From: Candidatus Tayloriibacteriota bacterium | Lineage (GTDB): Bacteria; Patescibacteriota; Minisyncoccia; Phycocordibacterales; PALSA-1337 | Assembly: GCA_003151615.1 (NCBI GenBank) | Contig: PLXZ01000004.1 | Location: forward strand, 173,285 to 237,284 | DNA: 64,000 bases | Direction of reading: 5' to 3' | Shown here: piece after piece, positions 13,198-45,091 of the stretch | Layout: each line of letters starts with the position of its first letter | Position numbering within the stretch: the first letter of the stretch is position 1 | The notes under the pieces: model-generated | Seen by the model: the letters and a program-made list of their open reading frames with translations, nothing else | What the model was told of the DNA's origin: nothing | The model's database searches: none | Made by a program: the position numbers and the translations under genes

Positions 13198-13205
13198 TTA
13201 GATAA

Positions 13206-13235
13206 TAAAAAAGAGGCGAACCGAAGTTCGCCTCA
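13206..13235 (-). terminator. Family-T terminator hairpin copy 2 (gaggcgaaccgaagttcgcctc)
   Basis: Same loop as copy 1 with compensatory stem changes. Downstream of 13252..13626(-). Confidence 0.55.
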
Positions 13236-13251
13236 TTGAATGTTAATGTTG

Positions 13252-13626: not shown

Positions 13627-13657
13627 TTTGGTCTCCTTTCTTTTGGTTGCTGGTTGA

Positions 13658-23863: not shown

Positions 23864-24472
23864 CTACGTCGGCAAGGTCTTGTTTTTTGAAAGCCAATTT
23901 TCCATACGATTTTCAAATGTCATAAGCTCCCACTGGGCTAAACTCGCGTTCTCATTTTTCGCTTTCTTCTTGCAAATATCCATGGCCTTTATGTACTCTT
24001 TTTCTGTAAATTCACCTTTTGTCCATTTTGGGCCTTCCCAAGCAATTTTATTTAGAATAATTGAATCTATCACGCAGTGCAGAGGTTCATCTTTTTTGAA
24101 ATTAAACACCCATAGGTATTTAAGATAGAGATTGAGAAGTTTTTGTACTCTGCCGAAAGTGATTTTGTTGTTATTCAAAATGTCGATATATACCGATTTG
24201 TTTATTTTTTGTTGAAAGTCATTGAGGAGTTCAATATACTCTTCGTCCGTATTAGGAATTTTTTCTGAAAATTTTTCAAGCTGTTCCGATAAATAATCTC
24301 TAAATTTCATCCGCTTATTTGGGTCGGCGTTCAGTTTGTAAGTGGAGTAGCCTCTTATTAACGCCGCTTGGAAAACCAAAGAAGAGATTTCTTTTTTGGC
24401 GAATTCTATTTTTTTGAATTCTATTGATTGCATACAAAAAGCCCACCACAGGTAGAGGCCTAAGCCTCTCAT
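23864..24472 (-). CDS. Hypothetical protein
   Basis: 202-aa ORF, Lys-rich. Confidence 0.4.
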   Translation of the reverse strand: MRGLGLYLWWAFCMQSIEFKKIEFAKKEISSLVFQAALIRGYSTYKLNADPNKRMKFRDYLSEQLEKFSEKIPNTDEEYIELLNDFQQKINKSVYIDILNNNKITFGRVQKLLNLYLKYLWVFNFKKDEPLHCVIDSIILNKIAWEGPKWTKGEFTEKEYIKAMDICKKKAKNENASLAQWELMTFENRMENWLSKNKTLPT

Positions 24473-24752
24473 ATCAGTTTCCCAATATGGCGAGTTAAGC
24501 GACCCTATGATGGGTTTTTTATGCTTAACTCGACTTTCTTCACCATGCCATTGGATTACTCAAATGGTTTAGGCTACTTCTAACATATTCAGTTGTGGCC
24601 TAATCATACAATAAACGCCAATATCTGCAATGGTGATTAAATCAGAGCAAGCGCAGGACAAAGTTCTTTTTGTGAGGTAGTATATTTCTATGCGGACACA
24701 GGTTTACAGCTGTTAGAGCCGAGTTTTAAGCGAAAGAGCCACCTATAAAGAT

Positions 24753-26837: not shown

Positions 26838-28457
26838 ATGAAAAAGAAGCAAGTAAATGAAAAACCATTAGAAGACATAAAATACGCCGCCAGTTATATC
26901 AGAGTGTCGACCCAAGACCAGCTCAACGGGCTTTCAATTGAGGTTCAAGAAAAACTGTGCCAACGAAGAGCCGAAGAAGCAGGGTACAAAGTATCTGAAG
27001 TCCTTGACGACGGAGGTATTAGCGGACACAACGACAATCGCCCAGGATTGCACCGCTTGAAAGAATTGATTACGACAAAAAAGATAACGGCTATAGTCGC
27101 TCTATCGTCCGAACGCCTTTTCCGCAACACCCGCTCGCATCTCGACTTTATGGAGTGCGTCTTTACTTACGGTGTTCATCTCCTTTACGTCAATGGGGCA
27201 ACACCTGAAAACAACGCAAGTTCAAGGATGCAGGACACAGTTCTTGCAAGTATGAATCAGTTTTATAGAGATCAAATATCTGACAAAGTGAAAGGTGTCC
27301 TCTATGAAAAGGCCAAAATGGGCTATTACCCCTCTCGACCTCCAGCAGGATATATGAATGTTCCAAACCCAGACAAGAATGCAGAACGCATGGCGCAAAA
27401 GCTCGTAGTGCCAGACCCAAACACAGCTCCATTCATCAAAGAAATGTTTACGCTCTACGCCACAGGAAATTTCAACGTCTACGACCTTTGCGACATTATG
27501 TACGAAAAGGGCTTGCGAAGCAGAAAGGATGGCAAAATATCGCCAAGTAGACTTCACGATATGCTGAGAAGCCGTTTTTACATCGGTGAGCTTGTATGGG
27601 GGCCAATCAGCAACATAGAGGGGAAACACGAGCCTATCATTGATGAAGCGGCCTTTAATCAAGTGCAAATGATTTTAACAGCACGCAATCACCACGCCTG
27701 TCGGCGGCGGAAATACCAATGGCTTTTAAACGGCTATCTCTACTGCTACAAGCACGACAACCGTTATACGGCCGAATGGCACACAATCGGAAATAGACGC
27801 ATTGCATATTACCATTGCGCCAACAAAAGCGGTTGCGGCAAGTATTCCGAACAAGTAGACCTAGAAGCTAAAGTTGCCGAAAAATTCAAGGACTTGGAGT
27901 TTAGTCCTGCGTTTATTAAAGAGGTGATCGCCGAAGCAAAGGCGACATTCAACGAACAGCGAAAGGGCTACGACAAAAAGAAACAAGGCCTCATCAATCA
28001 GCGTACCGCTTTCGACCGACGGCGCAAGGTTATGGAAGACAAACTTTTCGACGGCGTAATCGGCGATGACGACTTCAAAAAGAACCGAGCCGAAGTTATG
28101 GCTGAAATACAACGGATTGAGGTGAAGCTATCGGACTTGGAAAAAAGCAGGGAGGTCAGAGTTGATGAAGCGGAGCAGATACTTCGTTTTACGAAGAATA
28201 TTTACGACGCATATCAAAAGGCATCGCCAGATCTCAAGCGGCACTATTTAGGCTTCTTTTGGTCACGCTTTGAGGTAAGTGATAAGGTTATAATAACGTC
28301 TACTCCCTCGCTTCTTTTCGCTGAACTTTTGAAGCTAAAACACGCTATTTTTAGAAGGTCAGAAACGCAAAAACACAAAGGACTGAATAGATCTAACAAA
28401 GTTATATTAGGAGGTCTACGGCTCCGCATGTTGAACGAAGTCAGAACCTGCATTTAG
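26838..28457 (+). CDS. Large serine recombinase (resolvase N-domain + recombinase domain + Zn-ribbon + coiled coil)
   Basis: AASYIRVSTQDQ (catalytic Ser), DGGISGHNDNRPGL, recombinase-domain block, C...C.C...CGK zinc ribbon. 539 aa. The last 30 nt equal repeat family C. Confidence 0.8.
   Translation: MKKKQVNEKPLEDIKYAASYIRVSTQDQLNGLSIEVQEKLCQRRAEEAGYKVSEVLDDGGISGHNDNRPGLHRLKELITTKKITAIVALSSERLFRNTRSHLDFMECVFTYGVHLLYVNGATPENNASSRMQDTVLASMNQFYRDQISDKVKGVLYEKAKMGYYPSRPPAGYMNVPNPDKNAERMAQKLVVPDPNTAPFIKEMFTLYATGNFNVYDLCDIMYEKGLRSRKDGKISPSRLHDMLRSRFYIGELVWGPISNIEGKHEPIIDEAAFNQVQMILTARNHHACRRRKYQWLLNGYLYCYKHDNRYTAEWHTIGNRRIAYYHCANKSGCGKYSEQVDLEAKVAEKFKDLEFSPAFIKEVIAEAKATFNEQRKGYDKKKQGLINQRTAFDRRRKVMEDKLFDGVIGDDDFKKNRAEVMAEIQRIEVKLSDLEKSREVRVDEAEQILRFTKNIYDAYQKASPDLKRHYLGFFWSRFEVSDKVIITSTPSLLFAELLKLKHAIFRRSETQKHKGLNRSNKVILGGLRLRMLNEVRTCI
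28421..28450. repeat. Family C repeat copy 3, coincident with the 3' end of the serine recombinase ORF
   Basis: gctccgcatgttgaacgaagtcagaacctg, 28/30 identical to 13166-13195. Confidence 0.6.
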
Positions 28458-28534: not shown

Positions 28535-29620
28535 ATGAGCAGTAATGCACTACTATCTTTATCAAAGACAAATAAAGTTTCGGAGCAAAATAAATTTGTG
28601 GCAGCTCAACCGATGCCAACAATTGATATTGAAAACAGGCGATATATCGGTAGCAAAGCAAAACTTTTAGATTGGATTTTTGATCACATAAAAAAAGAAT
28701 GCAAAGGAAATAGCTTCGCTGATATTTTTGCCGGTACAGGCGTTGTTTCCGCTAGGGCAGCGAGATCATTCAACAAGATTATCTTGAACGATATTTTGCA
28801 TTCGAACTTTGCTTCATATCAGGGATTTTTTGCGCAGGAAAAATATGATAGGGAAAAAATATTTAATTTTGTAGCACATTACAATTCTCTAGATGCTAAG
28901 GATATCAAGCATACATTTTTTTCAAAAGCATTTGGCGGAAAGTATTTCAATGTACCTGCGGCAAAACTTATAGGATACATTCGCGAAGACTTAAATAAGA
29001 GAAAATCAGAATTAAATAACAAAGAGTATCATATTTTGTTAACATCTTTGCTATATTCAGCTGACAAAATTGCGAATACCGTAGGACATTACGAGGCATA
29101 TTTTAAGAAAAGTATTTCAGATCGTAAATTTATTTTTAGACTAATCGAACCTTTGATCAAAGCGGGTAGAGTTTCTATTCACAGAGAGGACGCCAATGAA
29201 TTGGCAAAGAGCTTGAAAGCTGACATTGTTTACATTGATCCGCCTTATAATTCAAGACAGTATAGTCGCTTCTACCATGTCCTAGAAACACTCGCTCTTT
29301 GGGACAACCCCAAGCTTTTTGGTGTTGCACTTAAGAGGCCAGAGGAGAATATGAGCGAATATTGCAGAAACAATGCGGTCAATGCATTCGCTGATCTAAT
29401 TGGTAAACTAAATGCTAAGTATATTGTTGTTTCCTACAATAATACCTATAACTCAAAAAGCTCATCGTCGAGAAATAAGATCGAGCTTGAAGATATAAAG
29501 AGCATTTTGACCAGTAAGGGTAAGACAAAGATTTTCAAAAAAAGTCACCAATTCTTTAACGCAGGTAAGACAGACTTCAACGATCATCAGGAATGGCTTT
29601 TTATCACGGAAGTATTATGA
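28535..29620 (+). CDS. DNA N6-adenine methyltransferase, D12/Dam class (first of two)
   Basis: RYIGSKAKLLDWI (D12 class motif I) and VYIDPPYNSRQY (DPPY catalytic motif). Confidence 0.75.
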   Translation: MSSNALLSLSKTNKVSEQNKFVAAQPMPTIDIENRRYIGSKAKLLDWIFDHIKKECKGNSFADIFAGTGVVSARAARSFNKIILNDILHSNFASYQGFFAQEKYDREKIFNFVAHYNSLDAKDIKHTFFSKAFGGKYFNVPAAKLIGYIREDLNKRKSELNNKEYHILLTSLLYSADKIANTVGHYEAYFKKSISDRKFIFRLIEPLIKAGRVSIHREDANELAKSLKADIVYIDPPYNSRQYSRFYHVLETLALWDNPKLFGVALKRPEENMSEYCRNNAVNAFADLIGKLNAKYIVVSYNNTYNSKSSSSRNKIELEDIKSILTSKGKTKIFKKSHQFFNAGKTDFNDHQEWLFITEVL

Positions 29621-30525
29621 AATCAGACACATCGATTAAAAGATCACCGTTTTTTTATGTCGGTGATAAGTTCAAACTAATAAAAGAGATAAAGCAATAT
29701 TTTCCAGAGAAAATAGATTCCTTTGCCGAACCTTTTTTGGGTGGAGGGAGTGTTTTTTTAAATGTGGATGCGAAAAAGCATTTTGTTAATGATATTGATA
29801 TTAATGTTATAAATCTTCACAAGTATTTAGCTAACTCCTCAAAAAAAGAAAAGGAGTTCTTCGGAAAAATTAAGAAAATCGTGCAAAGGTATAATCTCTC
29901 CCGATCATTTTTTGAGGACGTAGTCCCTCTTTCTTTGAGAAAAACATGGCTGAAGACATATTATGCCCACTTCAACAGAGACGGCTATAACAAAATGAAG
30001 AGTGAGTACAACAAGGTAAAAAAAGATACTCTAATTTTGTATCTGTTGCTCATATACGGTTTCAATAGGATGCTGAGGTTCAATAAGAAAGGCGAATTTA
30101 ATATTCCTGTTGGAAACGTTGATTTTAATCGGAATGTCGTGAATGCGCTTCATGATTATTTTGAAGCTATGAAAAGCAAAGATGTTGTTTTTTCTAGCAA
30201 GGATTTTAAGAAATTTATTTTAGACCTAAAGCTAAATAAAAATGACTTTGTGTATGTTGATCCACCATATTTAATCTCTGCAAGTGAGTACAACAAGCTT
30301 TGGAATGAAGATTTAGATCGAGAACTAATGAGTACTTTGGATATGTTGGATAAAAAAGACATAAGATTCGCTCTCTCCAATGTCACGGCATACAATGGTA
30401 AAAAGAACGAAAAATTGATATCTTGGATGAGTAAATACAAGGTTCATCCAATAAAGAGTAATTACATCAGCTATCACAACAATAAGAAAAAGCAAATAAA
30501 CGAAGTCCTGATCACAAATTATTAA
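29593..30525 (+). CDS. DNA N6-adenine methyltransferase, D12/Dam class (second)
   Basis: FFYVGDKFKLIKEI... and VYVDPPYLISASEY. Overlaps the first MTase by 28 nt. True start may be M at 29617. Confidence 0.7.
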   Translation: MAFYHGSIMKSDTSIKRSPFFYVGDKFKLIKEIKQYFPEKIDSFAEPFLGGGSVFLNVDAKKHFVNDIDINVINLHKYLANSSKKEKEFFGKIKKIVQRYNLSRSFFEDVVPLSLRKTWLKTYYAHFNRDGYNKMKSEYNKVKKDTLILYLLLIYGFNRMLRFNKKGEFNIPVGNVDFNRNVVNALHDYFEAMKSKDVVFSSKDFKKFILDLKLNKNDFVYVDPPYLISASEYNKLWNEDLDRELMSTLDMLDKKDIRFALSNVTAYNGKKNEKLISWMSKYKVHPIKSNYISYHNNKKKQINEVLITNY

Positions 30526-30526
30526 C

Positions 30527-32128
30527 ATGCCCACCTCACGAAACAACGAATATAAACCATTACTTTTTACGACGACTGTCAGAAATCCAAGTCGCCTAAA
30601 AGCGTTGTTGAGTGTACTTCACAAATTTAATAGCCAAGAGTTAACGAATGATCTCTCTGTGAAGATAATGGGTGAGTTAATTAGGTATGGATTATACAGA
30701 CCAACAAGAGCCGTGTCGTCAGAAATCGAAAAGAAGTGGGGATCAAAAAGAATAACAGATAACTCAACAATCGGTCTTCAGCTCCTTGCAGATGATGAGG
30801 TCGCCACGTTGCTCGACAAGAACCCACAAGCTCATAAAGAGGCAGGTTTTGATCGAGGTTGGCCATCACGATTTGCGACAGTGTTCGATTTAGCTAAGGA
30901 ACTTGGGTTTGTTTTTTATACAGTTGGTGAGAAGATTGAATTTTCCGAGATCGGGTCAAAGCTTGCAAACTCGATTGAAATAAAGATTCAAGAGGATAAT
31001 ATTTTAGTAGAAGATACTCACCCTGAATTTGAGCAGCAAGCTTTTCTGCATGCACTTGCCAAGTATCAAAGAAAAAATCCTTTCGTACGTGTTTTGAACG
31101 ATAATGCCCCGCTTATACTTTTGCTTGAGGTTATTCAGAAGATAAATGCTGACAACAATTTTAATGCATCTGGTATTTCTAAATTGGAGCTCCCGCTTTT
31201 TATTTACTGGAAGAATAATGATTCCGAAGCGCTTTATCAGAGAATAAAGAAGCTTCGTAATGATTTTGGCTATTCACCTACATGGGAAACGATATGTGAT
31301 ATTTGCAGAAACGAAATAATGCAGGGTGAGGACTCCACTAGGAAAGATAAATCAATCATGCTCGAGTATCCCGATGAATATATAAGGAAGATGCGTCTTA
31401 CCGGACTCATCTCTTTGAGAGGTGGTGGTAGATTCGTTGATATAAATAAAAATGAGCAAGAGAAGGTAGATTATATCCTCAAGGTATATTCAACTTATAA
31501 TAAATATCCCACCGAGCGAGAATATTTTAATTATGTCTCTACGATCGACGAGAACCTTGTCACTGTCGGCGCCAAGGCTGTAACGATTGAAGAGAAAGAT
31601 CGTTATCTTGAGAAATGGGTCAATGAATATTCATGGCCCAAAATTCGCGAGGAAATGACGAATCTTGCTGATAAGAAGCTTACCAAAGACGACGTTCTGA
31701 AATATCTTTCGAATCCAATAAGATTGGAGTTTCTTACTGCAATAGCAATAAAATCAAAGTTTCCGAATATTAAGGTCATCGCAAACTATCCCGTAGATGA
31801 CGAGGGTTTGCCTACATCGACAGCAGCCGGAGTCAACGATATGGGCGACATTGAGTGTTACGAAAATCATAATGGTGTTCTCGTTGAGGTGACAATGTCC
31901 GAGGGCCGATCGCAGACTATGATGGAAGTGTGGCCGATCACGCGTCATCTTGAGAAATTCAGCAAGAAGACAGAGGACGCCATGTGTTATTTTGTTGCCC
32001 CAAGCCTGTACACCGATTCAATAAGGCAAATAGACTATTCAAAACAACAGTACAATATTTCGATTGTACCAAAGACAATAAAAGATTTTTTGAATCACCT
32101 AGAAAGTACTCAAACACTCTATGTTTAA
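30527..32128 (+). CDS. Putative restriction endonuclease, large (533 aa), likely Type IIS (AlwI/MlyI/PleI-family-like) partner of the two MTases
   Basis: Start 2 nt after the second MTase stop. The two-Dam-like-MTase-plus-large-REase arrangement is characteristic of Type IIS systems. C-terminal D..E.YE...VLVEVT resembles a PD-(D/E)xK core. Family assignment is inference. Confidence 0.45.
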   Translation: MPTSRNNEYKPLLFTTTVRNPSRLKALLSVLHKFNSQELTNDLSVKIMGELIRYGLYRPTRAVSSEIEKKWGSKRITDNSTIGLQLLADDEVATLLDKNPQAHKEAGFDRGWPSRFATVFDLAKELGFVFYTVGEKIEFSEIGSKLANSIEIKIQEDNILVEDTHPEFEQQAFLHALAKYQRKNPFVRVLNDNAPLILLLEVIQKINADNNFNASGISKLELPLFIYWKNNDSEALYQRIKKLRNDFGYSPTWETICDICRNEIMQGEDSTRKDKSIMLEYPDEYIRKMRLTGLISLRGGGRFVDINKNEQEKVDYILKVYSTYNKYPTEREYFNYVSTIDENLVTVGAKAVTIEEKDRYLEKWVNEYSWPKIREEMTNLADKKLTKDDVLKYLSNPIRLEFLTAIAIKSKFPNIKVIANYPVDDEGLPTSTAAGVNDMGDIECYENHNGVLVEVTMSEGRSQTMMEVWPITRHLEKFSKKTEDAMCYFVAPSLYTDSIRQIDYSKQQYNISIVPKTIKDFLNHLESTQTLYV

Positions 32129-32207: not shown

Positions 32208-32654
32208 ATGACAAAAGCCGCAGACATGCTCGCAAATATGATGAAAGACCAAAACATCCAACCGCTTACACCGGCAATCATTCCTGTAGTTAAGAGTGCG
32301 ATTATTCCGACACAACCGCCAAAGAAGAAAAGAGGACGCCCAACAGCAATTACCCCAGACGTTTGTCGGAAAATAGAGGAGGTAGCAGCACTCGGCGGAA
32401 CTATCGAAGAAATGGCTATATATGGGGATATTCACAGAGATACGCTCTATGCTTACCTCAAACAAAATCCGGAGTTTTCCGACAGAATAGGAGCATTGCG
32501 TCAGAGACCCATTCTCAAGGCTCGTATTACTGTAATAAACAGCTTAAGTGAGCCACATCATGCCCAGTGGTATCTTGAACGCAAGGCACGCAAGGAATTT
32601 TCGCTGAAAGGAGAGGAGGATCCCACGATAAGGGTATTACAAATAGATATTTAA
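32208..32654 (+). CDS. Phage-like HTH protein (terminase small-subunit/homeodomain-like N-terminus)
   Basis: KKKRGRPTAITPDVCRKIEEVAALGGTIEEMAIYGDIHRDTLYAYLKQNPEFSDRI is the classic phage TerS/helix-turn-helix pattern. Confidence 0.4.
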   Translation: MTKAADMLANMMKDQNIQPLTPAIIPVVKSAIIPTQPPKKKRGRPTAITPDVCRKIEEVAALGGTIEEMAIYGDIHRDTLYAYLKQNPEFSDRIGALRQRPILKARITVINSLSEPHHAQWYLERKARKEFSLKGEEDPTIRVLQIDI

Positions 32655-32697
32655 AAAAGAGCTGAACAAATGCAGGACTATATGATATCCTTAGCGC

Positions 32698-33108
32698 ATG
32701 ATAAAAACTGAAAGCGCCGGCGGTGTCGTAAAAAACAAGGAAGGAAAAATCCTAGTTGTCAGCCAAAGGGGGACTTCATGGTCTTTGCCCAAAGGTCATA
32801 TAGAGCCGGGAGAAAATGCTCGAGAGGCTTCAAAAAGAGAAATTGAGGAAGAATCGGGGTTAACGAATATCACTTTCATCAAAGAACTGGGTACCTACTC
32901 CAGATTTAAAATAGCGAAGGACGGGGGTGAAGATACTTCTGAAAAAAAGACGTTGCATATCTTTCTGTATGAGACGGATCAAGATAAACTCAAACCAATT
33001 GATCCTGATAACCCTGAAGCTCGCTGGGTTGAACCAAATAAGGTTGCCGATTTACTGACACATCCGAAAGACAAAGAGTTTTTTATAAAGATTTTACCGA
33101 CCATATGA
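32698..33108 (+). CDS. NUDIX hydrolase
   Basis: Nudix box GHIEPGENAREASKREIEEESG (Gx5Ex7REUxEExGU). Confidence 0.7.
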   Translation: MIKTESAGGVVKNKEGKILVVSQRGTSWSLPKGHIEPGENAREASKREIEEESGLTNITFIKELGTYSRFKIAKDGGEDTSEKKTLHIFLYETDQDKLKPIDPDNPEARWVEPNKVADLLTHPKDKEFFIKILPTI

Positions 33109-34047: not shown

Positions 34048-37000
34048 ATGTCCATAAATGTTAAAATAGCTTTTCTCATGAACGACGAAACGCCCAATGC
34101 AATACCACCAGATAAATTTAAGTTTGACGATCCCCGTCAGAATACAATTTTCGATTACCTGAAAAGACTGGTCGGTGAGGGTGCGGCATCTTTCTATAAA
34201 GATGCTTGCCGTCACATGGTGACAAAGCCTCCTTTTGAGACTACGACGCATATCATTAGCCATCTTTTGCGCGAAGTCGAAAGCGCCCTTCGAGCCGTAC
34301 TCGAAGGGATAACTGAGCCAGCCCCTACCGGAGAAGGTAGGCACAAAAAGCAGATACAAATAATCCTGAAAGCCCTTGATATTCCTGAAAATGAACTGGT
34401 TGGTAGGGCTTGGTTGGAGTTGCCGGGAGATAACGGTTTCCAAGACACGGCTCACAGAAATAATCTTGATGCCGCGCGTCCAATGGACAACGATTTCAAG
34501 ACCAGATGGGATAATTTCAATTTGATTCTGCTATCCGTCCTAGGAAAATTCGAGACTCAATATACGAAAGTTTTTGTGACACTCAATGAGCTTGCGAAAA
34601 AGACAATGCCCGTGCAAGCAGACGTCAATACTTTAAAATTGCACATCCCAAATAATCGAGCGGCTCACGAACATTTTTTCAAAAAGATAGATTCACCCCT
34701 GTGGTTACCATTACTTAATGACGCGGGATTTTTTGCATCACCGCCCGCGCCCGAAAAAGATATAGAGAATAACAGTGTCCGCTACCCAGCTTGGCCGGTG
34801 CTTATCTATCTCGGAAAAGTCGCCACGGCATCACCAGATTTGGTGACTCAGATTCTGTCAGGTATTCCAGAAACAGAAAATGGTACTGTGAAAGCTGGGT
34901 TGATCGAGATAACGACCCTTTTGCCAAAAGAAAAGAAACTGGAGCTGATTCTGTGTGTAAAAAAATGGATGAATGCTGACAATCAATTCTTCAGCTCAAT
35001 AAAATCCATCGAACTCATAAAATCATTAGCAACTGATAAGGAGATAGATTCAGCCTTTACGTTGTCACGTGAGCTCCTGGAGTTTATTCCTGATCCTACA
35101 GTTCCCAAACCGATCGAGGGAACTGACTGGATACCTTCACGTGAGCCAAGGACAATTATAGATAAATGGCAGTACGCAAGGTTTCTACAAGATGATTTTC
35201 CGGCCATTGCACAGCAAGATCCTTTAAAGGCTCTTGGGCTTCTTTGTGACATGCTTACACGGTTCTACGATCTGAGCCATACCGGAAAGGCGGAGGAACC
35301 TCTTGAGGATTACTCTTACATCAGCCGACCGTTGATTGAGACATCGGATCATCTCCATCGCGATGATATCGATGATTCTTTGATGGAAGCGATACTGAGC
35401 GTATCAATCAATGGGATCAAAGAGGACTCTGCTTTTCTGGAAAAAAGTATCTCCAAACTGAAAAAACAAAAGTGGCCTGTGTTCACTCGCATTATCCTGT
35501 ACCTCTTGAGCAAGCATCCGATCATAAATCCGGACCTCACGATTAACTATGTATTAACTACTGAGTTTTTGGATAATCAAAACTATGGCCATGAGTACCC
35601 CTTACTGCTGAATAATGGCTTCAATTTACTTAGTTCTGAGCAGAAGAAAGTGATATTTGACCTGATTGAAAAAGCAGAGCTGATAAAAGAGCGCATTGAA
35701 ACGCGACCGGACCCAGTATCTGCGGAAAACGCAGACAAGATAGTGAAGGGCTGGCAACGTGACAAACTATCAATCATCGCAACTCATCTTGAGGGTGATC
35801 GAAAGAAGGGTTATGAAACACTGGTCGCTGATATGGGCAAAGCAGAGGATGAAGAAGTTCGACACAAGCGTTCGGGAGTTTTCGTTGGACCTGTAAGTGA
35901 TGTGGATGCTGAACGGATAAGCAAGATGACTCTTAATGAATTTATTGGGCTTCTGAAAACATGGCAACCAAAGAAGGGTGATTTCGGTTTCGGTCCCAGC
36001 AAGGAAGGACTTGGACGGGAGATCAGTGCCGCAGTCAAAAAAGAACCTGCTCAATTTTCCACTTACGCTATATCTCTCGTCGGTTTTGATCCAACATACG
36101 TCCGTAATTATCTTCAGGCATTTTCTGAAATCACACAGAATAATATTCTGTTCGAATGGAAAGCGATAGTCGATCTGGGCGTGTGGATATCAGAGCAACC
36201 TCGTGAGATTCCAGGAAGAATAGTTGGCCACGTATTCGACGAGGATGTTGATTGGGGTTGGACGAGGAGAGCTCTGATAACTTTGATTTCAAATGGCCTG
36301 AACAATAACTCGATTCCGTATGAGCTACACGAAAAAGTGTGGAAAATTATTGAAATCCTTACCGACGATCCTAATCCGACGTCGGAGCAAGAGCTGACCA
36401 GAGAAGGAACACTGACAGAAGATGCCTATGGACTCACGATCAATACCGTCCGTGGTGAGGCAATGACCGCTGTCGTTGAGTACGGATTATGGATCACTCG
36501 GTTGATAGATAAGTTGCCTGAAAACAAGAAGCCGACTCTAAAAGGGTTTGCCCTCCTGCCAAAGATCCAGTCCATTCTCGAAAAGCATTTAACAAACGAT
36601 CCGTCCATAGCTGTCCGCGCCGTATATGGACGCTATTTCCCATGGATTCTATACCTAGGAAACGATTGGACTCTCGCACACGTCAAAGATATTTTCCCGC
36701 CTGGTGGATTTAATACCCCTCTGTATGACGCGGCATGGGAAACGTATGTCACCTATGTCTCCGTCTACAATGATGTATTCGAGGTCCTCCGCGATCAATA
36801 CATGGAAGCGGTAAAAAACATCGGGACAGCAACAAAAAAGAAAAGCCATATAGATAGGGACAATAGTCTTGTTGGGCACCTCATGACCATGTTCTGGAGG
36901 GGTAAATTGGCCATCGGGGACATTCTATTTACCACCTTCTGGAAAACAGCGGATGCTGATACGAGAGGTCATGCAATGGATTTCATCGGTCGCAGTCTAC

Positions 37001-37494
37001 ACAACATGACAGAGCCACTAGAACCTGAGGAAACTGGACTATTGAAATCTCTTTGGAAATATAGAATCGAGGAAGCGGAAGCGGCGCAAGACAGAACGTC
37101 TTATCAAAAAGAGATGGACGCTTTTGGATGGTGGTTCGAAAGTGGAAAGTTTGATGAAGATTGGGCGATCAAAGAGTTTCTGAGGAGTCTCGATATAGCT
37201 AAAGGTATGAGATCAGATTACTTCGTCATCGACCGCTTGGTCATTCTGGTTGAGAGCAGACCGCTGGAGGCTCTTCAGATTCTCGAAAAGTTAATCCAGT
37301 CCGACAGACCCCAGTGGTTTATATTCGGAAATGAAAGCGATATCAGAACGATATTCACTCGAGCTCTTCATTCTCCCGAGGCAACAGCACAGAAAATGGC
37401 AACGGACCTGATCAACAGACTCGTCGCCAAGGGTTATAGTTCTTATAGTGATTTACTGTTACCTCCTCCAATTAGCCAGATTGTTATGGACTAA
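34048..37494 (+). CDS. Large hypothetical protein (1148 aa), mostly alpha-helical/W-rich, no recognised catalytic motif
   Basis: Single uninterrupted ORF. Composition suggests helical repeats. Sits between the R-M/NUDIX genes and a convergent hypothetical gene. Confidence 0.55.
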   Translation: MSINVKIAFLMNDETPNAIPPDKFKFDDPRQNTIFDYLKRLVGEGAASFYKDACRHMVTKPPFETTTHIISHLLREVESALRAVLEGITEPAPTGEGRHKKQIQIILKALDIPENELVGRAWLELPGDNGFQDTAHRNNLDAARPMDNDFKTRWDNFNLILLSVLGKFETQYTKVFVTLNELAKKTMPVQADVNTLKLHIPNNRAAHEHFFKKIDSPLWLPLLNDAGFFASPPAPEKDIENNSVRYPAWPVLIYLGKVATASPDLVTQILSGIPETENGTVKAGLIEITTLLPKEKKLELILCVKKWMNADNQFFSSIKSIELIKSLATDKEIDSAFTLSRELLEFIPDPTVPKPIEGTDWIPSREPRTIIDKWQYARFLQDDFPAIAQQDPLKALGLLCDMLTRFYDLSHTGKAEEPLEDYSYISRPLIETSDHLHRDDIDDSLMEAILSVSINGIKEDSAFLEKSISKLKKQKWPVFTRIILYLLSKHPIINPDLTINYVLTTEFLDNQNYGHEYPLLLNNGFNLLSSEQKKVIFDLIEKAELIKERIETRPDPVSAENADKIVKGWQRDKLSIIATHLEGDRKKGYETLVADMGKAEDEEVRHKRSGVFVGPVSDVDAERISKMTLNEFIGLLKTWQPKKGDFGFGPSKEGLGREISAAVKKEPAQFSTYAISLVGFDPTYVRNYLQAFSEITQNNILFEWKAIVDLGVWISEQPREIPGRIVGHVFDEDVDWGWTRRALITLISNGLNNNSIPYELHEKVWKIIEILTDDPNPTSEQELTREGTLTEDAYGLTINTVRGEAMTAVVEYGLWITRLIDKLPENKKPTLKGFALLPKIQSILEKHLTNDPSIAVRAVYGRYFPWILYLGNDWTLAHVKDIFPPGGFNTPLYDAAWETYVTYVSVYNDVFEVLRDQYMEAVKNIGTATKKKSHIDRDNSLVGHLMTMFWRGKLAIGDILFTTFWKTADADTRGHAMDFIGRSLHNMTEPLEPEETGLLKSLWKYRIEEAEAAQDRTSYQKEMDAFGWWFESGKFDEDWAIKEFLRSLDIAKGMRSDYFVIDRLVILVESRPLEALQILEKLIQSDRPQWFIFGNESDIRTIFTRALHSPEATAQKMATDLINRLVAKGYSSYSDLLLPPPISQIVMD

Positions 37495-38308
37495 TTCCTA
37501 CGGATATATCAGTGATCAGTTTATTCTTGAAGTTAGAGAAGCAGTTGAAAAAGTGCGATGCAGTAAGGAAATATAGAGTAAAGTAGGCTTTCGTCTGACT
37601 GGCGGGCATGTTATCAATAAAATCAAAATTGCTATAATTCAGCCGTAACCGCATTTGATAAAAAAAGTCGAAAATTGAAACCGTCAGCGACTGTTTAAAG
37701 CTTTCCACCCGTTGTCGATTTCTGATTGTCCTTACTTCTGTGATGCCATGGGACAATTTCCAACTAGCAATCTTCTCGTTGGCAACCTTCTTCATTATCA
37801 ATTTGTAAACTACATCGTCCTCGGTGTTTCCTCTCAAGTTTGCGCCGGAGGTACTCCGAAAATTAAGGATAGACTTATCGAATACTTGATTAAAGAGAGG
37901 TTGGCTAAATTGAAGCGATCCGCTTGATAGTAATCCAGTGAAATGTTTTACGCAGTCTACGTGTTTTGCTCTGAGCTGCGATGTCTTGCCTGTCATGAGA
38001 CAGTCAATGACGCATAGCAGGTGATAGGCAAGGTAATAGGATTTGATAGGCAACCACAAAACGGCTGCGGTCGAGTATTCTTCATCCATTTGTACGATAC
38101 CACACTCGTCGTCGATTGATTTTTTCGTCAGCTCAATTAAACGTACCTTGTCTCTGATTGCAGGAAGCTCTGTTGGTGTGAGTAGTGCATTTGATGTAGA
38201 TGAAATTGATACGCCACGTGCAAGTTTTGCGAGGAGGGATATATATTTCAGATGCGTAGAAAAGTCCGGTCTGTTTAAGGGGGAGAATGGAGATTGTGTG
38301 AATAGCAT
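37484..38308 (-). CDS. Hypothetical protein
   Basis: 274-aa ORF convergent with, and overlapping by 11 nt, the 1148-aa gene. Confidence 0.4.
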   Translation of the reverse strand: MLFTQSPFSPLNRPDFSTHLKYISLLAKLARGVSISSTSNALLTPTELPAIRDKVRLIELTKKSIDDECGIVQMDEEYSTAAVLWLPIKSYYLAYHLLCVIDCLMTGKTSQLRAKHVDCVKHFTGLLSSGSLQFSQPLFNQVFDKSILNFRSTSGANLRGNTEDDVVYKLIMKKVANEKIASWKLSHGITEVRTIRNRQRVESFKQSLTVSIFDFFYQMRLRLNYSNFDFIDNMPASQTKAYFTLYFLTASHFFNCFSNFKNKLITDISVGISP

Positions 38309-38615
38309 ATACCCACTTTATTCCTCGTTAAGAAGAAAGTAAAGAAAGAAAGCGAGTAACAATACACTCTTTTGAGTGTATGTGGACTGATTTCAAATAG
38401 ATGGTATCATGTTGGTTACAATTGAATATTAAAGTAGCCTAAACCCTCGAGTAATCGGTGGCATGGTGAAAAGTCCCGTCGGAGCCAAAGAACCCATCAT
38501 ATGGGGTCGCTCTGACGGGCCGTATCGGGAAACTGATATGAGCAACTTCGGTTGCTACCCATGTGGTGGGCTTTTTGCTACCACTCATGGAATATTTACG
38601 CCCTAAAATATTCGC

Positions 38616-39614
38616 ATGAAAATCCTAATTACGTTCGCACTTGGAATCTTTAGCTTTTTCCATCAATCAATAACTCCTACCATTGCCATCTCAACAACCA
38701 CAGAGACGGCGACAACCTCTGTCTTTTCATCAGAAGCTACCACATCAGTGGCAGATTCTAATACTCAAAATGTAAACATATGCGAGAAAGAATATGGCAC
38801 GAATAGTTTAAACTCCGGTGGTGCTCCTGCCTGTGAATGCGCGCATGGATACGCCTGGAATAATGAATATACCAAATGCGTGACGCCAACGGTTGCTTGT
38901 TCAGAAATTAATGCCAATTGGGATGGTAAAATTACCAACAGTGAAGCTGAGTGCAATAGCTGCATGCCTGGATACGTTCCCAATAGTGCCGGGACAGCTT
39001 GCCAAATATCTAACGTATCAAATCCCCCAGAGACTACAACTAATTTAGAACAAGACTGTTTGAATAATGTCATGCAAAACGAGGCGCAAATGCTCCAAAA
39101 ATCTAACGCAGCACAAAAAACGTCAATACTATCAATAAATGACCAGCTCCAATTAAATAACGAGGCCATGTATGAGGAAAATCAGATTATGGCCATAGGA
39201 ATCAACGCATGCAAAGCTATGGCCGGGCAACCGACAACACCAATTCAATCTACTCCTGATCAACAGTACAGCGAGACAAACTCCTCTTACCAGCCAACCA
39301 TTCAAGACACAACAGGTCAAAATAACACTAACATTTATGGGGTGATCTACGCCCTCGACGGATCAACCGTTTCTGGAAATAGTGGAAATTATTCTCGAGT
39401 GGGCGACACGATTTATACCCCCGGGGGTGCAACTTACAGTGTTGTTGGTGACACCATATACGGACCGGGTGGGGTGACCTACAGTTTGGTCGGTAACACA
39501 CTTTATGGTCCCGGCGGTACGACCTACAACCTCACCGGCAATAAGATACAAAGTAGTGACGGTTCATCTGCCTCAAAGGTCGGCGACACCATCTACATCC
39601 AGCCGGGCAATTAA
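38616..39614 (+). CDS. Secreted Cys-rich protein with C-terminal 12-aa tandem repeats (VGDTIYxPGGxTYS)
   Basis: Signal peptide. Six+ repeats of GDTIYTPGGATYSVVGDTIYGPGGVTYSLVGNTLYGPGGTTYNL. Confidence 0.5.
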   Translation: MKILITFALGIFSFFHQSITPTIAISTTTETATTSVFSSEATTSVADSNTQNVNICEKEYGTNSLNSGGAPACECAHGYAWNNEYTKCVTPTVACSEINANWDGKITNSEAECNSCMPGYVPNSAGTACQISNVSNPPETTTNLEQDCLNNVMQNEAQMLQKSNAAQKTSILSINDQLQLNNEAMYEENQIMAIGINACKAMAGQPTTPIQSTPDQQYSETNSSYQPTIQDTTGQNNTNIYGVIYALDGSTVSGNSGNYSRVGDTIYTPGGATYSVVGDTIYGPGGVTYSLVGNTLYGPGGTTYNLTGNKIQSSDGSSASKVGDTIYIQPGN

Positions 39615-42668: not shown

Positions 42669-42997
42669 AATCATATAATCCGAATGATTCAGGAAAAAAG
42701 TTTCTGGTTGATGAATGTCAAAAAATAAGTATAACAACCTATATTCGACAAGCTAAAGCAAAGCTCAAGAATGCACTACTCATGAGCACACTTGAGATGG
42801 ATAGCAAGGCCATAGAATTGACCCCCTCAAAGACCTCATTCCATGGCGAAAGATATTGGTTCAAATGCCCTAAATGCAGTAAGCGCGCCGGCACATTATT
42901 CGTACATCCACTGAATCATGAAATTGGATGTAGAAAATGCCTTAACCTTGAGTACAGAAGCAGAAGATATAAAGGCATGATTGAGGAGTCATTTTAA
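42665..42997 (+). CDS. Hypothetical zinc-ribbon protein
   Basis: CPKCSKR...CRKC, 110 aa. Start overlaps the upstream stop (ATGA). Confidence 0.4.
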   Translation: MKSYNPNDSGKKFLVDECQKISITTYIRQAKAKLKNALLMSTLEMDSKAIELTPSKTSFHGERYWFKCPKCSKRAGTLFVHPLNHEIGCRKCLNLEYRSRRYKGMIEESF

Positions 42998-43056
42998 GCC
43001 CGTAGACTTATCTTGTATTAGCGGTATTGTATGTGTTAAGACAACTAACAAAAATA

Positions 43057-44759
43057 AAATGAAAAACGAAGCGCAAATAATAAATTACGATGTGTATCTC
43101 CGTAAATCGAGTGAGGCGGAAGATAAACAGATTCAGTCCATCGATGACCAGAGGCGAGAACTGAATGAATATGCAAATAAGAATAATCTTCACATAGTAG
43201 GTGAGTTTGAGGAATCGCAGAGTGCACATCATCCAGGGCGGCCGATTTTTAACAAAGTCATGAAAAGGATCGAGAAGGGAATATCGACTGGATTACTAGT
43301 TTGGCACGCCAACAGAACCTCGAGAAATCCAGTTGATAGTGGAACAATAATAAACCTTATCGATGAAAAGAAACTGATACATGTTAGGACGCCGTCACAT
43401 ATTTACGGTAATACTTCCACGGAGAAAATGATGCTTGCACTTGAGTGTATGATGGCTAAAAAAGATTCGGACGATAAAAGCGAAGCGGTAAAGAGAGGTC
43501 TACGCGGCAGATATAGAAAGGGACTTCCAAATGGCGTGGCACCTATCGGATTCCTAAATGATATGTCAGTTGAAAAAGGTAATCGGGGATGGCTTGTGGA
43601 CGCCGAAAAGCTCCCTCTTATTGGCCAACTTCTTCAGCTCTGTCTTACCGGAAGATATTCAACCAGAGATCTCCTAAATATCGCAAATGAGGATATGGGA
43701 CTCCGCACCCAACTCCGCAAAAAACAGGGAGGTAAAAAACTTGTGCTCTCATATCTGACAGATGTCATCCTTAAGGGAGAGGTATACGCCGGATTTTTCT
43801 ACACCGCTGATGGTGAGAGACATGATTTGGCTGAAAGCATCCCAAGACTAATTACAGAAGAACAACACTGGCAAATTAGAAAGATATTAGGTGATAGAAA
43901 CAGGCCTCGAGCGTCAAAAAATAAAATGACCTTCGCGTATACGGGACCGACAAAGTGTGGAGGGTGCGAGGGATCAATCACTGCTGAACACAAGTACCAG
44001 CTTATTTGCGCCTGTAAATTAAAGTTTGTTTATCTTAATAAGACACATTGTCCGGGGTGCGGAGTTTCAATAAAAAACATAGAAAAGCCCACCTATCTTC
44101 ATTACATTTATTACCACTGCACTAGGAAGAAAGATTTACTTTGCCGTGAGGGTAGTGTGCAGGAATTATACATAGATAATCATCTAGCAACATACTTCAA
44201 AGAAAATTTCAAAATCTCGAAAGCGCTCCATGAATGGTGTATCGAAAATATCGAAGCCCTTGATGCTGGCGATGCTAAAAACGGATCCGAAAAGAAAATA
44301 TCTTTGGAAGCGACCATCGCTAAAAAGCAAAATGAATACAAAGAGCTTGTTCTCATGAAGACCCGCGGACTTATCAGTGATAGCGATTTTGTAGAGCTTA
44401 AGACGAGCCAAAAAGCCGAAATTGAGGCCTTACAGCGGACTTTGAGCAATACGCCAAATAAGGACCAAACATCAAGCGTTAAAGCGCGTAGAGCCTTTAC
44501 GCTCGCATTAGGAATTGAAGAAGTATTCAAGAACGGAACACCTCAAGAGAAAAAAGAGGTGTTATCAGAGATTGGTTCGAACCTAACTTTAAAAGACAAA
44601 AAGCTCAATGTTTACAACACAGGAATCTATGAACGGATCATAAACGGACTACTTAGGGCGAAAGCAGAAAATCCTCGGTTCGAACCTGAATATATCTTAG
44701 ATACATCAAGTCAGAATAAAGATTTTATGCTCGCACGACCAACTCTGCTCCGGGAGTAG
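43057..44759 (+). CDS. Large serine recombinase (second copy, distinct sequence)
   Basis: YDVYLRKSSEAEDKQIQSIDDQRRELNEY (resolvase catalytic domain with Ser), recombinase domain, CGGCEGS...C zinc ribbon. Stop codon lies inside the 3' end of the adjacent tRNA gene. Confidence 0.75.
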
Positions 44760-45091
44760 GGATCGAACCTACGACCAATCGCTTACATCGCTCCTCTTGT
44801 TGCCAAAAGGGATGGACTATATCATTTCCATACATTGTCAATCTGATTTGACGAATGATTAGGGACGAGGGGCTTCGCGGGCTGTTTTGAAATTTTTGTA
44901 TTTCATAACGCCAGCTACTCTTTAAAAAGATAGTCTCTACACCTTCCCATTTTTTGAATGGGCTCGGCTCGGGATTGCCCGCAGTTTTGTGCTGCGGGTT
45001 TCCCCGATTTCTCCTCGTTATTCGACCAGGCTTTTACCTGGAAGCTGCAAGTTGTTTACAGGCGACTGCTCTACCGCTGAGCTATCCCGGA
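44748..45091 (-). tRNA. tRNA gene (probably tRNA-Asn GUU) interrupted by a group I intron in the anticodon loop
   Basis: 5' exon TCCGGGATAGCTCAGCGGTAGAGCAGTCGCCTGT (acceptor, D-arm GCTC/GAGC, anticodon stem GTCGC). 3' exon TAAGCGATTGGTCGTAGGTTCGATCCCTACTCCCGGAG (anticodon stem GCGAT, T-arm GTAGG-TTCGATC-CCTAC, 7-bp acceptor complement). Exons are separated by ~270 nt. Confidence 0.6.
44786..45057 (-). ncRNA. Group I self-splicing intron within the tRNA
   Basis: P-like ACTGCGGGCAA, Q-like AACCCGCAGC, R-like GTAGAGACTAT and S-like GATATAGTCC elements in order. P1 possible between exon CTGT and GCAG (terminal U.G). Omega-G precedes the 3' exon. Confidence 0.55.

What the first reader, a model, noticed from the sequence alone, without database searches (positions are those of the whole stretch)
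34048..38308. Orphan 1148-aa helical protein with a convergent partner, located just downstream of R-M and NUDIX genes: candidate novel defence or effector module
A single 3.4-kb ORF with no catalytic motif I can recognise, W/L-rich and probably repeat-helical. It is convergently overlapped by a 274-aa hypothetical gene and embedded among defence-type genes. Giant orphan proteins in defence islands are frequent sources of new systems.
Basis: inference. Interest (0 to 1): 0.6.

Follow-up and report, generated by a model that had tools for sequence, protein, structure and literature searches.

The report
Dsr1-like phage sensor, swapped effector
The 1148-aa gene is not an orphan: it belongs to a widespread, unannotated family built like the anti-phage protein Dsr1, with the same giant helical sensor but a small uncharacterised helical domain in place of the NAD-destroying sirtuin, and the 274-aa neighbour is not its partner.

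Summary
Both ORFs exist exactly as stated: 34048-37494 (+), 1148 aa, and 37484-38308 (-), 274 aa, with an 11-nt overlap. The large protein is not an orphan. Residues 176-1131 match the PADLOC Dsr1 model over its whole non-sirtuin part (E 9e-38). Residues ~25-175 form a confidently modelled helical domain with no match in Pfam, NCBIfam, PADLOC or PDB, and with a near-invariant polar set (D52, C54, H72, R75, E76, E78, H136, R137, R144).

A profile of this domain finds 1309 clusters, and in the listed hits it is almost always joined to the same sensor. A Paludibacter protein joins it to a textbook Dsr1 sensor (E 2e-209), so it replaces SIR2.

The family is patchy across bacterial phyla and archaea. 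It has no conserved neighbour and often sits beside R-M systems, recombinases and transposases.

The 274-aa gene is absent from all 64 species-genome loci and three further contigs carrying a relative, so it is not a partner.

Lee et al. (Nature 2026) showed that the Dsr1/Avs7 sensor binds phage major capsid protein and occurs with swapped effectors, including a "HEPN-like RNase".

Best reading: a stand-alone abortive-infection protein of that class. An RNase effector is plausible but unproven. This is a variant of a known kind, of moderate interest.

The parts
34048..37494 (+). Gene for the 1148-aa Dsr1-like protein. The stop codon is included. The true start is possibly M11 at 34078.
   Evidence: ORF listed and translated. 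An identical protein is called on a 563-kb ENA contig. There are 49 further homologous clusters and 64 genome loci. The N-terminal alignment shows the closest homologue starting at M11.
34120..34572 (+). N-terminal helical domain (aa ~25-175), the predicted effector, in the position that SIR2 occupies in Dsr1.
   Evidence: AF2 model of aa 1-200: pLDDT 91.6, all helical. No match in Pfam, NCBIfam, PADLOC or by PDB sequence search. The profile finds 1309 clusters at 50% identity. Mean pairwise identity is 44.6%, against 33.3% for the sensor. A Paludibacter protein has a homologous domain (hhalign probability 99%) fused to a strong Dsr1 sensor.
34249..34293 (+). Conserved motif 1, aa 68-82: H-x3-H-x2-R-E-x-E-S-x2-R (HIISHLLREVESALR), on the long helix 66-86.
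   Evidence: R75 is conserved in 100%, H72 in 99%, E78 in 97%, H68 in 96%, E76 in 94%, R82 in 92% and S79 in 91% of 195 sequences. R75, E76 and E78 are invariant in alignments A1 and A2.
34453..34479 (+). Conserved motif 2, aa 136-144: H-R-x2-L-x3-R (HRNNLDAAR), in the loop after helix 131-135.
   Evidence: H136 and R137 are each conserved in 99%, L140 in 98% and R144 in 97% of 195 sequences.
34573..37440 (+). C-terminal alpha-solenoid sensor (aa 176-1131), homologous to the non-sirtuin part of Dsr1.
   Evidence: One alignment stretch to PADLOC PDLC04166 (Dsr1): aa 176-1131 against profile positions 294-1215 of 1227, E 8.8e-38. Other family members give E 4e-18 to 5e-57, and the Paludibacter variant gives 2e-209. 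The AF2 model is all-alpha with HEAT/ARM-type Foldseek matches. The C-terminal half also matches the C-termini of haloarchaeal plasmid proteins annotated 'AAA family ATPase'.

Best explanation
The gene encodes a stand-alone anti-phage (abortive-infection type) protein of the Dsr1/Avs7-sensor class.

Sensor. The C-terminal ~950 residues form a large alpha-solenoid homologous to the Dsr1 sensor. In E. coli Dsr1 and Salmonella Avs7 that sensor binds newly made phage major capsid protein (Lee et al. 2026).

Effector. The N-terminal ~150-residue helical domain occupies the place of the SIR2 NADase and is the effector.

Proposed mechanism. In the resting state the effector is held inactive by the sensor. 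Binding of a phage structural protein clamps the solenoid and frees or oligomerises the N-domains. The N-domains then damage an essential host molecule and stop phage production. The most likely target is RNA, cut by a metal-independent Arg/Glu/His active site (R75, E76, E78, H136, R137).

Shown here:
- sensor homology;
- replacement of SIR2 by this domain;
- single-gene organisation;
- patchy, mobile, defence-island distribution.

Inferred:
- the trigger is capsid protein (about 0.4);
- the effector is an RNase, HEPN-like or otherwise (about 0.45);
- activation works by de-repression or oligomerisation.
For: 1. Sensor homology. PADLOC Dsr1 gives E 8.8e-38 in a single stretch that covers the whole non-SIR2 part of the model. 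The same holds for archaeal, actinomycete and HTH-fused members.
2. Domain swap. A Paludibacter MAG protein (L064) has a Dsr1 sensor at E 2.3e-209. Its first ~195 aa are homologous to this N-domain (hhalign probability 99%, E 4e-18), with the LREIES and AHR motifs kept.
3. Effector-like conservation. The N-domain is more conserved than the sensor (44.6% against 33.3% mean pairwise identity). It carries a near-invariant polar set of D52, C54, H72, R75, E76, E78, H136, R137 and R144 in 195 sequences.
4. Fixed architecture. Of 131 N-domain proteins of at least 900 aa, 129 align to the whole family profile, and only one has a Walker-A-like pattern.
5. Single gene. No neighbour family occurs in more than 8 of 64 loci.
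6. Defence and mobile context.
   - Type I R-M S/M/R genes lie upstream in several loci, with the S subunit directly adjacent in four of them.
   - Type IIG/mad5 and SNF2 genes lie nearby in several others.
   - Neighbours also include OLD/AAA_15/AAA_21, Lit peptidase, PIN, serine recombinases and transposases.
   - In the window the gene sits in a low-GC island with a type IIS-like R-M system and two serine recombinases.
7. Horizontal transfer. The family occurs in Patescibacteria, Acidobacteriota, Actinomycetota, Cyanobacteria, Chloroflexota, Planctomycetota, Bacillota, Bathyarchaeia and Methanotrichaceae. One identical protein is found in two unrelated contexts. A full-length member lies on a Streptomyces linear plasmid beside TniB and Mu-type transposase genes.
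8. Literature. The Dsr1/Avs7 sensor binds phage major capsid protein, and non-STAND proteins with this sensor carry varied effectors, including a HEPN-like RNase (PMC13581612 and PMC12803255).
9. Hints of dimeric action. Two clusters carry tandem N-domains.
10. Weak HEPN matches. Weak Foldseek matches include HEPN toxins 7bxo (TM 0.51), 8xeh and 8xdj, and sacsin HEPN 3o10 (TM 0.48).
Against: - No member of this family has been tested experimentally.
- The N-domain has no significant structural or sequence match. The best Foldseek E-value is 1.4, and generic helical bundles such as the vinculin tail score about as well as HEPN.
- The canonical HEPN R-x4-6-H motif is absent. The conserved motif is H136-R137-x6-R144.
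- The NCBIfam Dsr1 equivalog scores 13.6 bits against a cut-off of 1400, so this is a distant relative, and the sensor's specificity could differ from that of E. coli Dsr1.
- The bilobed shape described for Avs7/Dsr1 could not be checked, because no coordinates were available and PDB 9N00, 9N01 and 9YIX did not appear among the listed Foldseek matches (the local copy stops at 8 April 2026, before the paper was published).
- I could not verify that the 'HEPN-like' protein of Lee et al. (Streptomyces sp. NBC_00271) belongs to this family, because the supplementary tables are not held and that strain did not appear among the hits.
- No relatives are phage-borne. This fits host defence but does not prove it.
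Confidence: 0.7

Rival explanations
1. The 1148-aa protein and the convergent 274-aa protein form a two-gene defence or toxin-antitoxin-like module.
For: The two genes overlap convergently by 11 nt in this window. The 274-aa protein is a real conserved family of 47 clusters with no annotated function.
Against: tblastn finds the 274-aa protein in none of the 64 genome loci that carry a homologue of the large gene. It is also absent from L071-L073, which carry the closest relatives at 83% and 46% identity. Its own homologues sit in other contexts that lack the large gene: beside type IIG R-M and HTH genes in L066, and in another context in L067. In L066 it lies next to a homologue of window ORF 32208-32654, which suggests it belongs to the backbone of a mobile element.
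Confidence: 0.04
2. It is a defence protein of the Dsr1-sensor class, but the N-domain is not a nuclease. It would be either a different enzyme (for example a metal-dependent hydrolase using H68, H72, E76, H99 and H136, or a nucleotide- or NAD-directed activity) or a non-catalytic adaptor that recruits a host factor.
For: There is no significant HEPN match and no R-x4-6-H motif. Conserved His, Glu, Asp and Cys residues could bind a metal. No library contains the domain. Some members carry a CxxC insert between helices 3 and 4.
Against: H68 is lost in the divergent members P0038, L064 and NBC_00212, while R75, E76, E78, H136 and R137 persist. That pattern fits an Arg/Glu/His acid-base site better than a His-based metal site. 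An adaptor would be expected to have a conserved partner gene, and none is found. Lee et al. describe a HEPN-like RNase on this sensor in Streptomyces, a genus that has members of this family.
Confidence: 0.2
3. It is a function of the mobile island itself, such as element maintenance, addiction or anti-defence, rather than host anti-phage immunity.
For: It is carried as cargo next to serine recombinases, transposases and tRNA integration sites in many genomes. Its nearest neighbours in the window are uncharacterised element genes.
Against: Homology to a sensor with experimentally shown anti-phage function. The gene occurs with many different element types and also embedded in type I R-M operons. 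That is typical of defence cargo and not of backbone genes. It is absent from phage and viral collections.
Confidence: 0.04
4. It is a housekeeping HEAT/ARM-repeat scaffold protein with no immune role.
For: The best structural matches are eukaryotic scaffolds such as CAND1, importins and PP2A-A. There is no Pfam domain.
Against: Those matches reflect only the generic solenoid fold, with TM-scores of 0.1-0.3. The distribution is sporadic across phyla, synteny is not conserved, several copies appear as split or fragmented ORFs, and the contexts are mobile. There is specific HMM homology to Dsr1.
Confidence: 0.02

Closest known systems
Dsr1 (defence-associated sirtuin 1; Gao et al. 2020; Garb et al. 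2022; EcDsr1 in Lee et al. 2026)
   Same: It is a single-gene system of ~1150-1250 aa. The C-terminal ~950-aa alpha-solenoid is homologous over its whole length (PADLOC E 8.8e-38). It occurs in defence islands and is transferred horizontally.
   Different: It has no SIR2 domain. The first ~175 aa are an unrelated helical domain. The NCBIfam Dsr1 equivalog is far below its cut-off. NAD+ depletion is therefore not expected.
Non-STAND proteins with the Avs7/Dsr1 sensor and alternative effectors, including the 'HEPN-like RNase-containing protein' of Streptomyces sp. NBC_00271 (Lee et al., Nature 2026, Extended Data Fig. 2; PMC13581612)
   Same: The same architecture class: an N-terminal effector, the Dsr1/Avs7-type sensor, and no NTPase. 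Streptomyces members of the present family exist, including one on the plasmid of strain NBC_00212.
   Different: Whether it is the same family could not be verified, because the supplementary table is not held. That protein was only modelled, not assayed. The present domain lacks the canonical R-x4-6-H motif.
Avs7 (SeAvs7, a STAND NTPase immune receptor; Lee et al. 2026)
   Same: The sensor class is related. The C-terminal half of the window protein matches the C-termini of haloarchaeal plasmid proteins annotated 'AAA family ATPase' (tblastn E down to 4e-20).
   Different: It has no NTPase module and no Cap4 nuclease. ATP-driven tetramerisation cannot apply as described for Avs7.
DSR2 (SIR2 plus a HEAT-like sensor that binds phage tail tube protein)
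   Same: The same logic: an N-terminal effector held by a large C-terminal solenoid that recognises a phage structural protein (abstracts).
   Different: No sequence match to DSR2 models or to PDB chains. The sensor family and the effector both differ.
HEPN-superfamily abortive-infection RNases (PrrC/RloC anticodon nucleases, Abi_2/AbiD-F, HEPN-MNT toxins)
   Same: It is a small all-helical domain with conserved Arg, Glu and His residues. Some homologues are embedded in type I R-M operons, as PrrC is (the PrrC comparison is from my own knowledge). There are weak Foldseek matches to HEPN toxins.
   Different: There is no significant sequence or fold match and no R-x4-6-H motif. Membership is not established.

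Membership tests
Dsr1 (defence-associated sirtuin 1) | N-terminal SIR2 (sirtuin) NADase domain | tested here: not met
   Pfam finds no family at all in the 1148-aa protein. The PADLOC Dsr1 alignment starts only at profile position 294. The NCBIfam Dsr1 equivalog scores 13.6 bits against a cut-off of 1400. The N-terminus is an all-helical domain.
Dsr1 (defence-associated sirtuin 1) | C-terminal ~900-aa helical sensor homologous to that of Dsr1 | tested here: met
   PADLOC PDLC04166: aa 176-1131 against profile positions 294-1215 of 1227, E 8.8e-38, in one stretch. Family members reach E 5e-57, and the Paludibacter variant reaches 2e-209.
Dsr1 (defence-associated sirtuin 1) | Acts as a single gene, with no conserved partner | tested here: met
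   No neighbour family is shared by more than 8 of 64 loci. The 274-aa gene is absent from all related loci.
Avs7 / STAND NTPase immune receptors | Central STAND (NACHT/NB-ARC-type) P-loop NTPase module | tested here: not met
   No NTPase family appears in Pfam, PADLOC or NCBIfam. A Walker-A-like pattern occurs in only 1 of 195 family members.
Avs7/Dsr1-sensor class of defence proteins (Lee et al. 2026) | Sensor homologous to the Avs7/Dsr1 TPR-like solenoid with a bilobed, sharply bent shape | tested here: inconclusive
   Homology to the Dsr1 sensor is met, as is similarity to the C-termini of plasmid 'AAA family ATPase' proteins. The AF2 model is an all-alpha solenoid. Its overall shape could not be inspected, and PDB 9N00, 9N01 and 9YIX did not appear among the listed Foldseek matches.
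Avs7/Dsr1-sensor class of defence proteins (Lee et al. 2026) | Sensor binds phage major capsid protein, and binding triggers effector-dependent cell death | not testable with these tools
   This was shown for SeAvs7 and EcDsr1 only. It needs co-expression or binding experiments.
HEPN superfamily RNases | Conserved R-x4-6-H catalytic motif | tested here: not met
   The conserved residues are H68, H72, R75, E76, E78, H99, H136, R137 and R144. No conserved Arg is followed by a conserved His 5-7 residues later. The nearest motif is H136-R137-x6-R144.
HEPN superfamily RNases | Four-helix up-down HEPN fold | tested here: inconclusive
Defence-island genes in general | Patchy phylogenetic distribution and enrichment next to known defence or mobile-element genes | tested here: met
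   The family occurs in many bacterial phyla and two archaeal lineages. Neighbours include type I and type IIG R-M, mad5, OLD/AAA_15/AAA_21, Lit, PIN, recombinases and transposases. No background rate was computed, so this result is qualitative.

The most novel reading that the evidence does not exclude
The N-terminal ~150-aa domain is a new effector enzyme fold, not a HEPN domain. It is used almost exclusively with the Dsr1-type capsid sensor. It is present in more than 1300 sequence clusters, including Patescibacteria (CPR) and archaea, and it kills or arrests the cell by chemistry not yet seen in abortive infection. The family would then be a distinct, untested single-gene defence system rather than a relabelled Dsr1.
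Probability: 0.3. Interest if true: 0.55.

Novelty: new variant of a known kind. Interest (0 to 1): 0.38.

Why it matters
The family is large and completely unannotated: every named member is called 'hypothetical protein', and it has no Pfam or NCBIfam model and no full PADLOC model. This work places it in the Dsr1/Avs7-sensor class of phage pattern-recognition proteins. It also defines the family's effector domain and the residues to mutate.

The work extends this class to Patescibacteria and archaea, whose immune repertoires are poorly known. It also shows that current defence annotation, which would either miss the protein or call it 'Dsr1', mislabels proteins whose sirtuin has been replaced.

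The gain is incremental, because effector swapping on this sensor has already been published.

Tried and rejected
- Library scans of the N-domain. Pfam, NCBIfam and PADLOC scans of all 33 aligned members at E up to 1 gave only scattered chance hits.
- PDB sequence searches. Profiles of the whole family and of the N-domain found nothing meaningful.
- Foldseek of the N-domain against PDB gave nothing significant.
- Foldseek of the full-length model returned only generic HEAT/ARM solenoids and no Avs7, Dsr1 or DSR2 structure among the listed matches.
- Supplementary tables of Lee et al. are not held for either the preprint or the Nature version, so family membership in their Table 8 could not be checked.
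- A search from a Streptomyces-lineage homologue, looking for strain NBC_00271, found other Streptomyces strains but not that one.
- Partner hypothesis: tested by tblastn and by the partner's own contexts, and rejected.
- Conserved-operon hypothesis (R-M or NUDIX as part of the system): rejected, because no neighbour is conserved.
- Phage or viral origin: no relatives in INPHARED phages or IMG/VR contigs.
- Island att repeats: none were convincing.
- PHROGs for the surrounding small ORFs gave only a small-terminase-like hit for 32208-32654.

Full report
**Observation**

One is 34048..37494 (+), ATG start, 1148 aa. The other is 37484..38308 (-), 274 aa. Both end in TAA and overlap convergently by 11 nt.

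Upstream on the same strand lie several genes:
- a large serine recombinase (26838-28457);
- two D12-class adenine methyltransferases (28535-30525);
- an AlwI-family endonuclease (30527-32128);
- a NUDIX gene (32698-33108);
- further downstream, a second serine recombinase (42981-44759).

The region from about 20 to 46 kb has 37-44% GC, against about 50% on parts of the flanks. The protein has 2.3% Trp and 10.6% Leu, so 'W/L-rich' is at most a weak description.

**The large protein is not an orphan**

A word-indexed search found 50 clusters at 90% identity, nearly all covering 97-99% of the query. A scan of one genome per species found 64 loci. All members that carry a name are called 'hypothetical protein'.

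Pfam finds nothing in the protein. PADLOC does. Residues 176-1131 align in one stretch to positions 294-1215 of the 1227-position Dsr1 model, with E 8.8e-38. That region is the whole of Dsr1 apart from its N-terminal sirtuin. The narrow NCBIfam Dsr1 equivalog scores only 13.6 bits against a cut-off of 1400. This is therefore a relative of the Dsr1 sensor and not Dsr1 itself. Archaeal, actinomycete and HTH-fused family members give the same PADLOC hit, with E from 4e-18 to 5e-57.

An AF2 model of the whole protein has pLDDT 87.2 and pTM 0.72 and is entirely helical. Its best PDB matches are HEAT/ARM solenoids such as CAND1, importins, TBCD and PP2A-A, with low TM-scores. This confirms the 'repeat-helical' guess and nothing more specific.

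The C-terminal half also matches the C-termini of haloarchaeal plasmid proteins annotated 'AAA family ATPase'. One example is a 1363-aa protein of Halapricum. This reproduces the published observation that the sensor is shared between ATPase-containing and ATPase-free proteins.

**The N-terminal domain**

Residues ~25-175 occupy the place of SIR2. Modelled with 33 homologues, the domain is confidently helical, with pLDDT 91.6.

It has no match in any library searched:
- Pfam, NCBIfam and PADLOC, even at E up to 1 and across 33 members;
- PDB sequences;
- Foldseek against PDB, where the best E-value is 1.4. A few HEPN toxins and the sacsin HEPN domain appear, with target-normalised TM-scores of 0.37-0.51, but so do vinculin tails and designed helical bundles.

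An exhaustive HMM search with the domain profile found 1309 clusters at 50% identity with E up to 1e-3, and 541 with E up to 1e-30. Among the listed hits, 129 of 131 proteins of at least 900 aa align to the complete family profile, and only one has a Walker-A-like pattern. In the listed hits the domain is therefore tied to this sensor.

Across 195 sequences the following residues are 91-100% conserved: D52, C54, H68, H72, R75, E76, E78, S79, R82, H99, W122, H136, R137, L140 and R144. The domain is also more conserved than the sensor, at 44.6% against 33.3% mean pairwise identity. This is the pattern expected for an enzymatic effector joined to a faster-evolving receptor.

The decisive comparative result comes from a Paludibacter MAG protein (L064).
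- Its residues 176-1099 are a textbook Dsr1 sensor (PADLOC E 2.3e-209).
- Its first ~195 residues are homologous to the present domain (hhalign probability 99%, E 4e-18).
- The LREIES and AHR motifs are retained.

The domain therefore replaces the sirtuin on a bona fide Dsr1 sensor.

**Single gene, mobile, in defence neighbourhoods**

Clustering about 680 ORFs within 6 kb of the homologues shows no family shared by more than 8 of the 64 loci.

The recurrent neighbours are defence or mobility genes:
- type I R-M S, M and R genes upstream in L006, L010, L048, L051 and L053, with the S subunit directly adjacent in four of these;
- type IIG/mad5 methylase-nucleases with an SNF2 helicase in L011, L013, L039, L041 and L044;
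- OLD/AAA_15/AAA_21 ATPases, Lit peptidase and PIN;
- serine recombinases.

Three further observations point to mobility:
- The family occurs in Patescibacteria, Acidobacteriota, Actinomycetota, Cyanobacteria, Chloroflexota, Planctomycetota, Bacillota, Bathyarchaeia and Methanotrichaceae.
- One protein, 83% identical to the window's, is encoded with identical sequence in two unrelated contexts.
- A full-length member (hhalign E 1e-98) lies on a Streptomyces sp. NBC_00212 linear plasmid beside TniB and Mu-type transposase genes.

Several genomic copies appear as split or fragmented ORFs and may be decayed. No relative is found in phage genomes or in IMG/VR viral contigs.

**The 274-aa 'partner'**

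It is a real gene with 47 homologous clusters. It has no family assignment in Pfam, PADLOC, NCBIfam or PHROGs.

tblastn does not find it in any of the 64 related loci. It is also absent from the three contigs that carry the closest relatives of the large gene.

Its own homologues sit elsewhere, without the large gene. In L066 the homologue lies beside a type IIG R-M system and HTH genes, and in L067 it lies in yet another context. In L066 it is adjacent to a homologue of window ORF 32208-32654, which is small-terminase-like. This suggests that both belong to the backbone of a mobile element. The convergent overlap in this window is therefore incidental.

**Comparison with what is known**

Lee et al. 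(bioRxiv January 2026, PMC12803255; Nature, 29 July 2026, PMC13581612) report the following:
- The Avs7 sensor is shared with Dsr1 and with other defence proteins that lack the STAND NTPase.
- These proteins carry NADase, nuclease, kinase and unknown effectors.
[quoted passage not shown] - Capsid-protein binding clamps the two sensor lobes and relieves autoinhibition of the effector.

The window protein fits this class. It may belong to the very group they label HEPN-like, since Streptomyces members exist. I could not verify that, because the supplementary tables are not held.

**Mechanism proposed**

The sensor holds the N-domain inactive. A phage structural protein, most likely the major capsid protein by analogy (probability about 0.4), binds and closes the solenoid. 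The released N-domains then act, probably after pairing. Two clusters with tandem N-domains hint at dimeric function.

The conserved Arg/Glu/His set is typical of metal-independent RNases. H68 is lost in divergent members, while R75, E76, E78, H136 and R137 are kept. Some homologues are embedded in type I R-M operons, as the anticodon nuclease PrrC is. That last comparison is from my own knowledge.

I therefore favour an RNase effector, at about 0.45. The canonical HEPN R-x4-6-H motif is absent and no fold match is significant. HEPN membership is not established, and a different enzymatic activity remains a serious rival.

**Verdict**

The defence interpretation is supported, the two-gene module is not, and the 'novel system' claim shrinks to a Dsr1-type sensor with an uncharacterised, non-sirtuin effector.

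This is a variant of a kind that has recently been described. It is of moderate interest, mainly because the effector domain is large in number (more than 1300 clusters), unannotated, untested, and present in Patescibacteria and archaea.

Noticed in passing
window 24454-24575 (-) and 38436-38556 (+): There are two full-length LOOT RNAs (Rfam RF03000; 82.4 and 84.3 bits against a gathering score of 46.4). They lie in inverted, outward-facing orientation 14 kb apart. Between them are the recombinase, the R-M system, NUDIX, the Dsr1-like gene and the 274-aa gene. Each sits just upstream, on the same strand, of an unrelated gene (24472..23864 and 38616..39614), and a terminator-like hairpin follows the right-hand copy. 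One hairpin shows compensatory changes between the two copies.
   Followed up: partly
L002 8635-8754, L049 7290-7412, L072 6913-7037, L003 4388-4504: LOOT RNAs recur in four other Patescibacteria loci that carry a homologue of the large gene. In L002 and L049 the RNA is 1.2-2.6 kb upstream on the same strand, and in L072 it is next to a serine recombinase. None was found in the other Patescibacteria-type loci scanned (L034, L044, L057, L071, L073) or in three loci from other phyla (L005, L009, L012). LOOT may be an RNA of serine-recombinase islands in this phylum.
   Followed up: partly
window 44775-45085 (-): There is a group I intron (RF00028, 52.1 bits, just above the gathering score of 50) at 44793-45067. 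By eye it interrupts the anticodon loop of a tRNA gene. The 5' exon reads CCGGGATAGCTCAGCGGTAGAGCAGTCGCCTGT and the 3' exon ends GGTTCGATCCCTACTCCCGGAGCA. My reading of the spliced loop is CUGUUAA, which would be tRNA-Asn(GUU). ARAGORN missed it. It abuts the end of the second serine recombinase gene. Related islands have the recombinase next to an intron-less tRNA (L002, L049, L057, L073), so this is probably the integration site and the right border of the island.
   Followed up: partly
window 28535-32128 (+): This is a type IIS-like R-M system: two separate D12-class N6-adenine methyltransferases followed by an AlwI-family endonuclease (PADLOC REase_II, E 4e-121). The arrangement of two methylases, one per strand, is typical of AlwI, MlyI and N.BstNBI-type systems (the last point is from my own knowledge).
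   Followed up: no
window 32208-33108 (+): ORF 32208-32654 (148 aa) matches PHROG terminase small subunit families (E 7e-14) although no other phage genes are nearby. A homologue lies next to the homologue of the 274-aa gene in L066. The NUDIX protein that follows matches PADLOC defence candidate PDC-S07 (E 2e-10).
   Followed up: partly
P0025, P0027, P0029 (about 1300 aa); P0192; P0119, P0151: There are architectural variants of the family. Three clusters carry an N-terminal extension of about 175 aa that includes an XRE-type HTH (Pfam HTH_3; PADLOC HTH_VI, capH and RmrA-like). One has a different N-terminal extension of about 200 aa. Two have a tandem duplication of the N-domain.
   Followed up: partly
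N-domain alignment, between helices 3 and 4 (window aa ~87-97): Several homologues (P0014, P0022, P0037, P0039, P0040, P0044) carry an insert with a single CxxC motif at this loop. The window protein does not.
   Followed up: no
L004, L027, L029, L032, L042, L043, L045, L050, L059; L055, L062, L063, L065: Many genomic copies are split into two or more ORFs or are reduced to N-terminal remnants. This suggests decay, although sequencing or assembly error was not excluded. One example is the culturable Fredinandcohnia humi DSM 16318, where the gene is split into 684 and 434 aa.
   Followed up: no
L070 (Legionella pneumophila conjugative plasmid NZ_CP016871.1, CDS 11428-13797): A 789-aa 'hypothetical protein' matches residues 465-1136 of the window protein (E 3e-34). 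It is flanked by IS256 and IS3 transposases. It is probably a truncated or differently headed relative of the same sensor on a conjugative plasmid.
   Followed up: no
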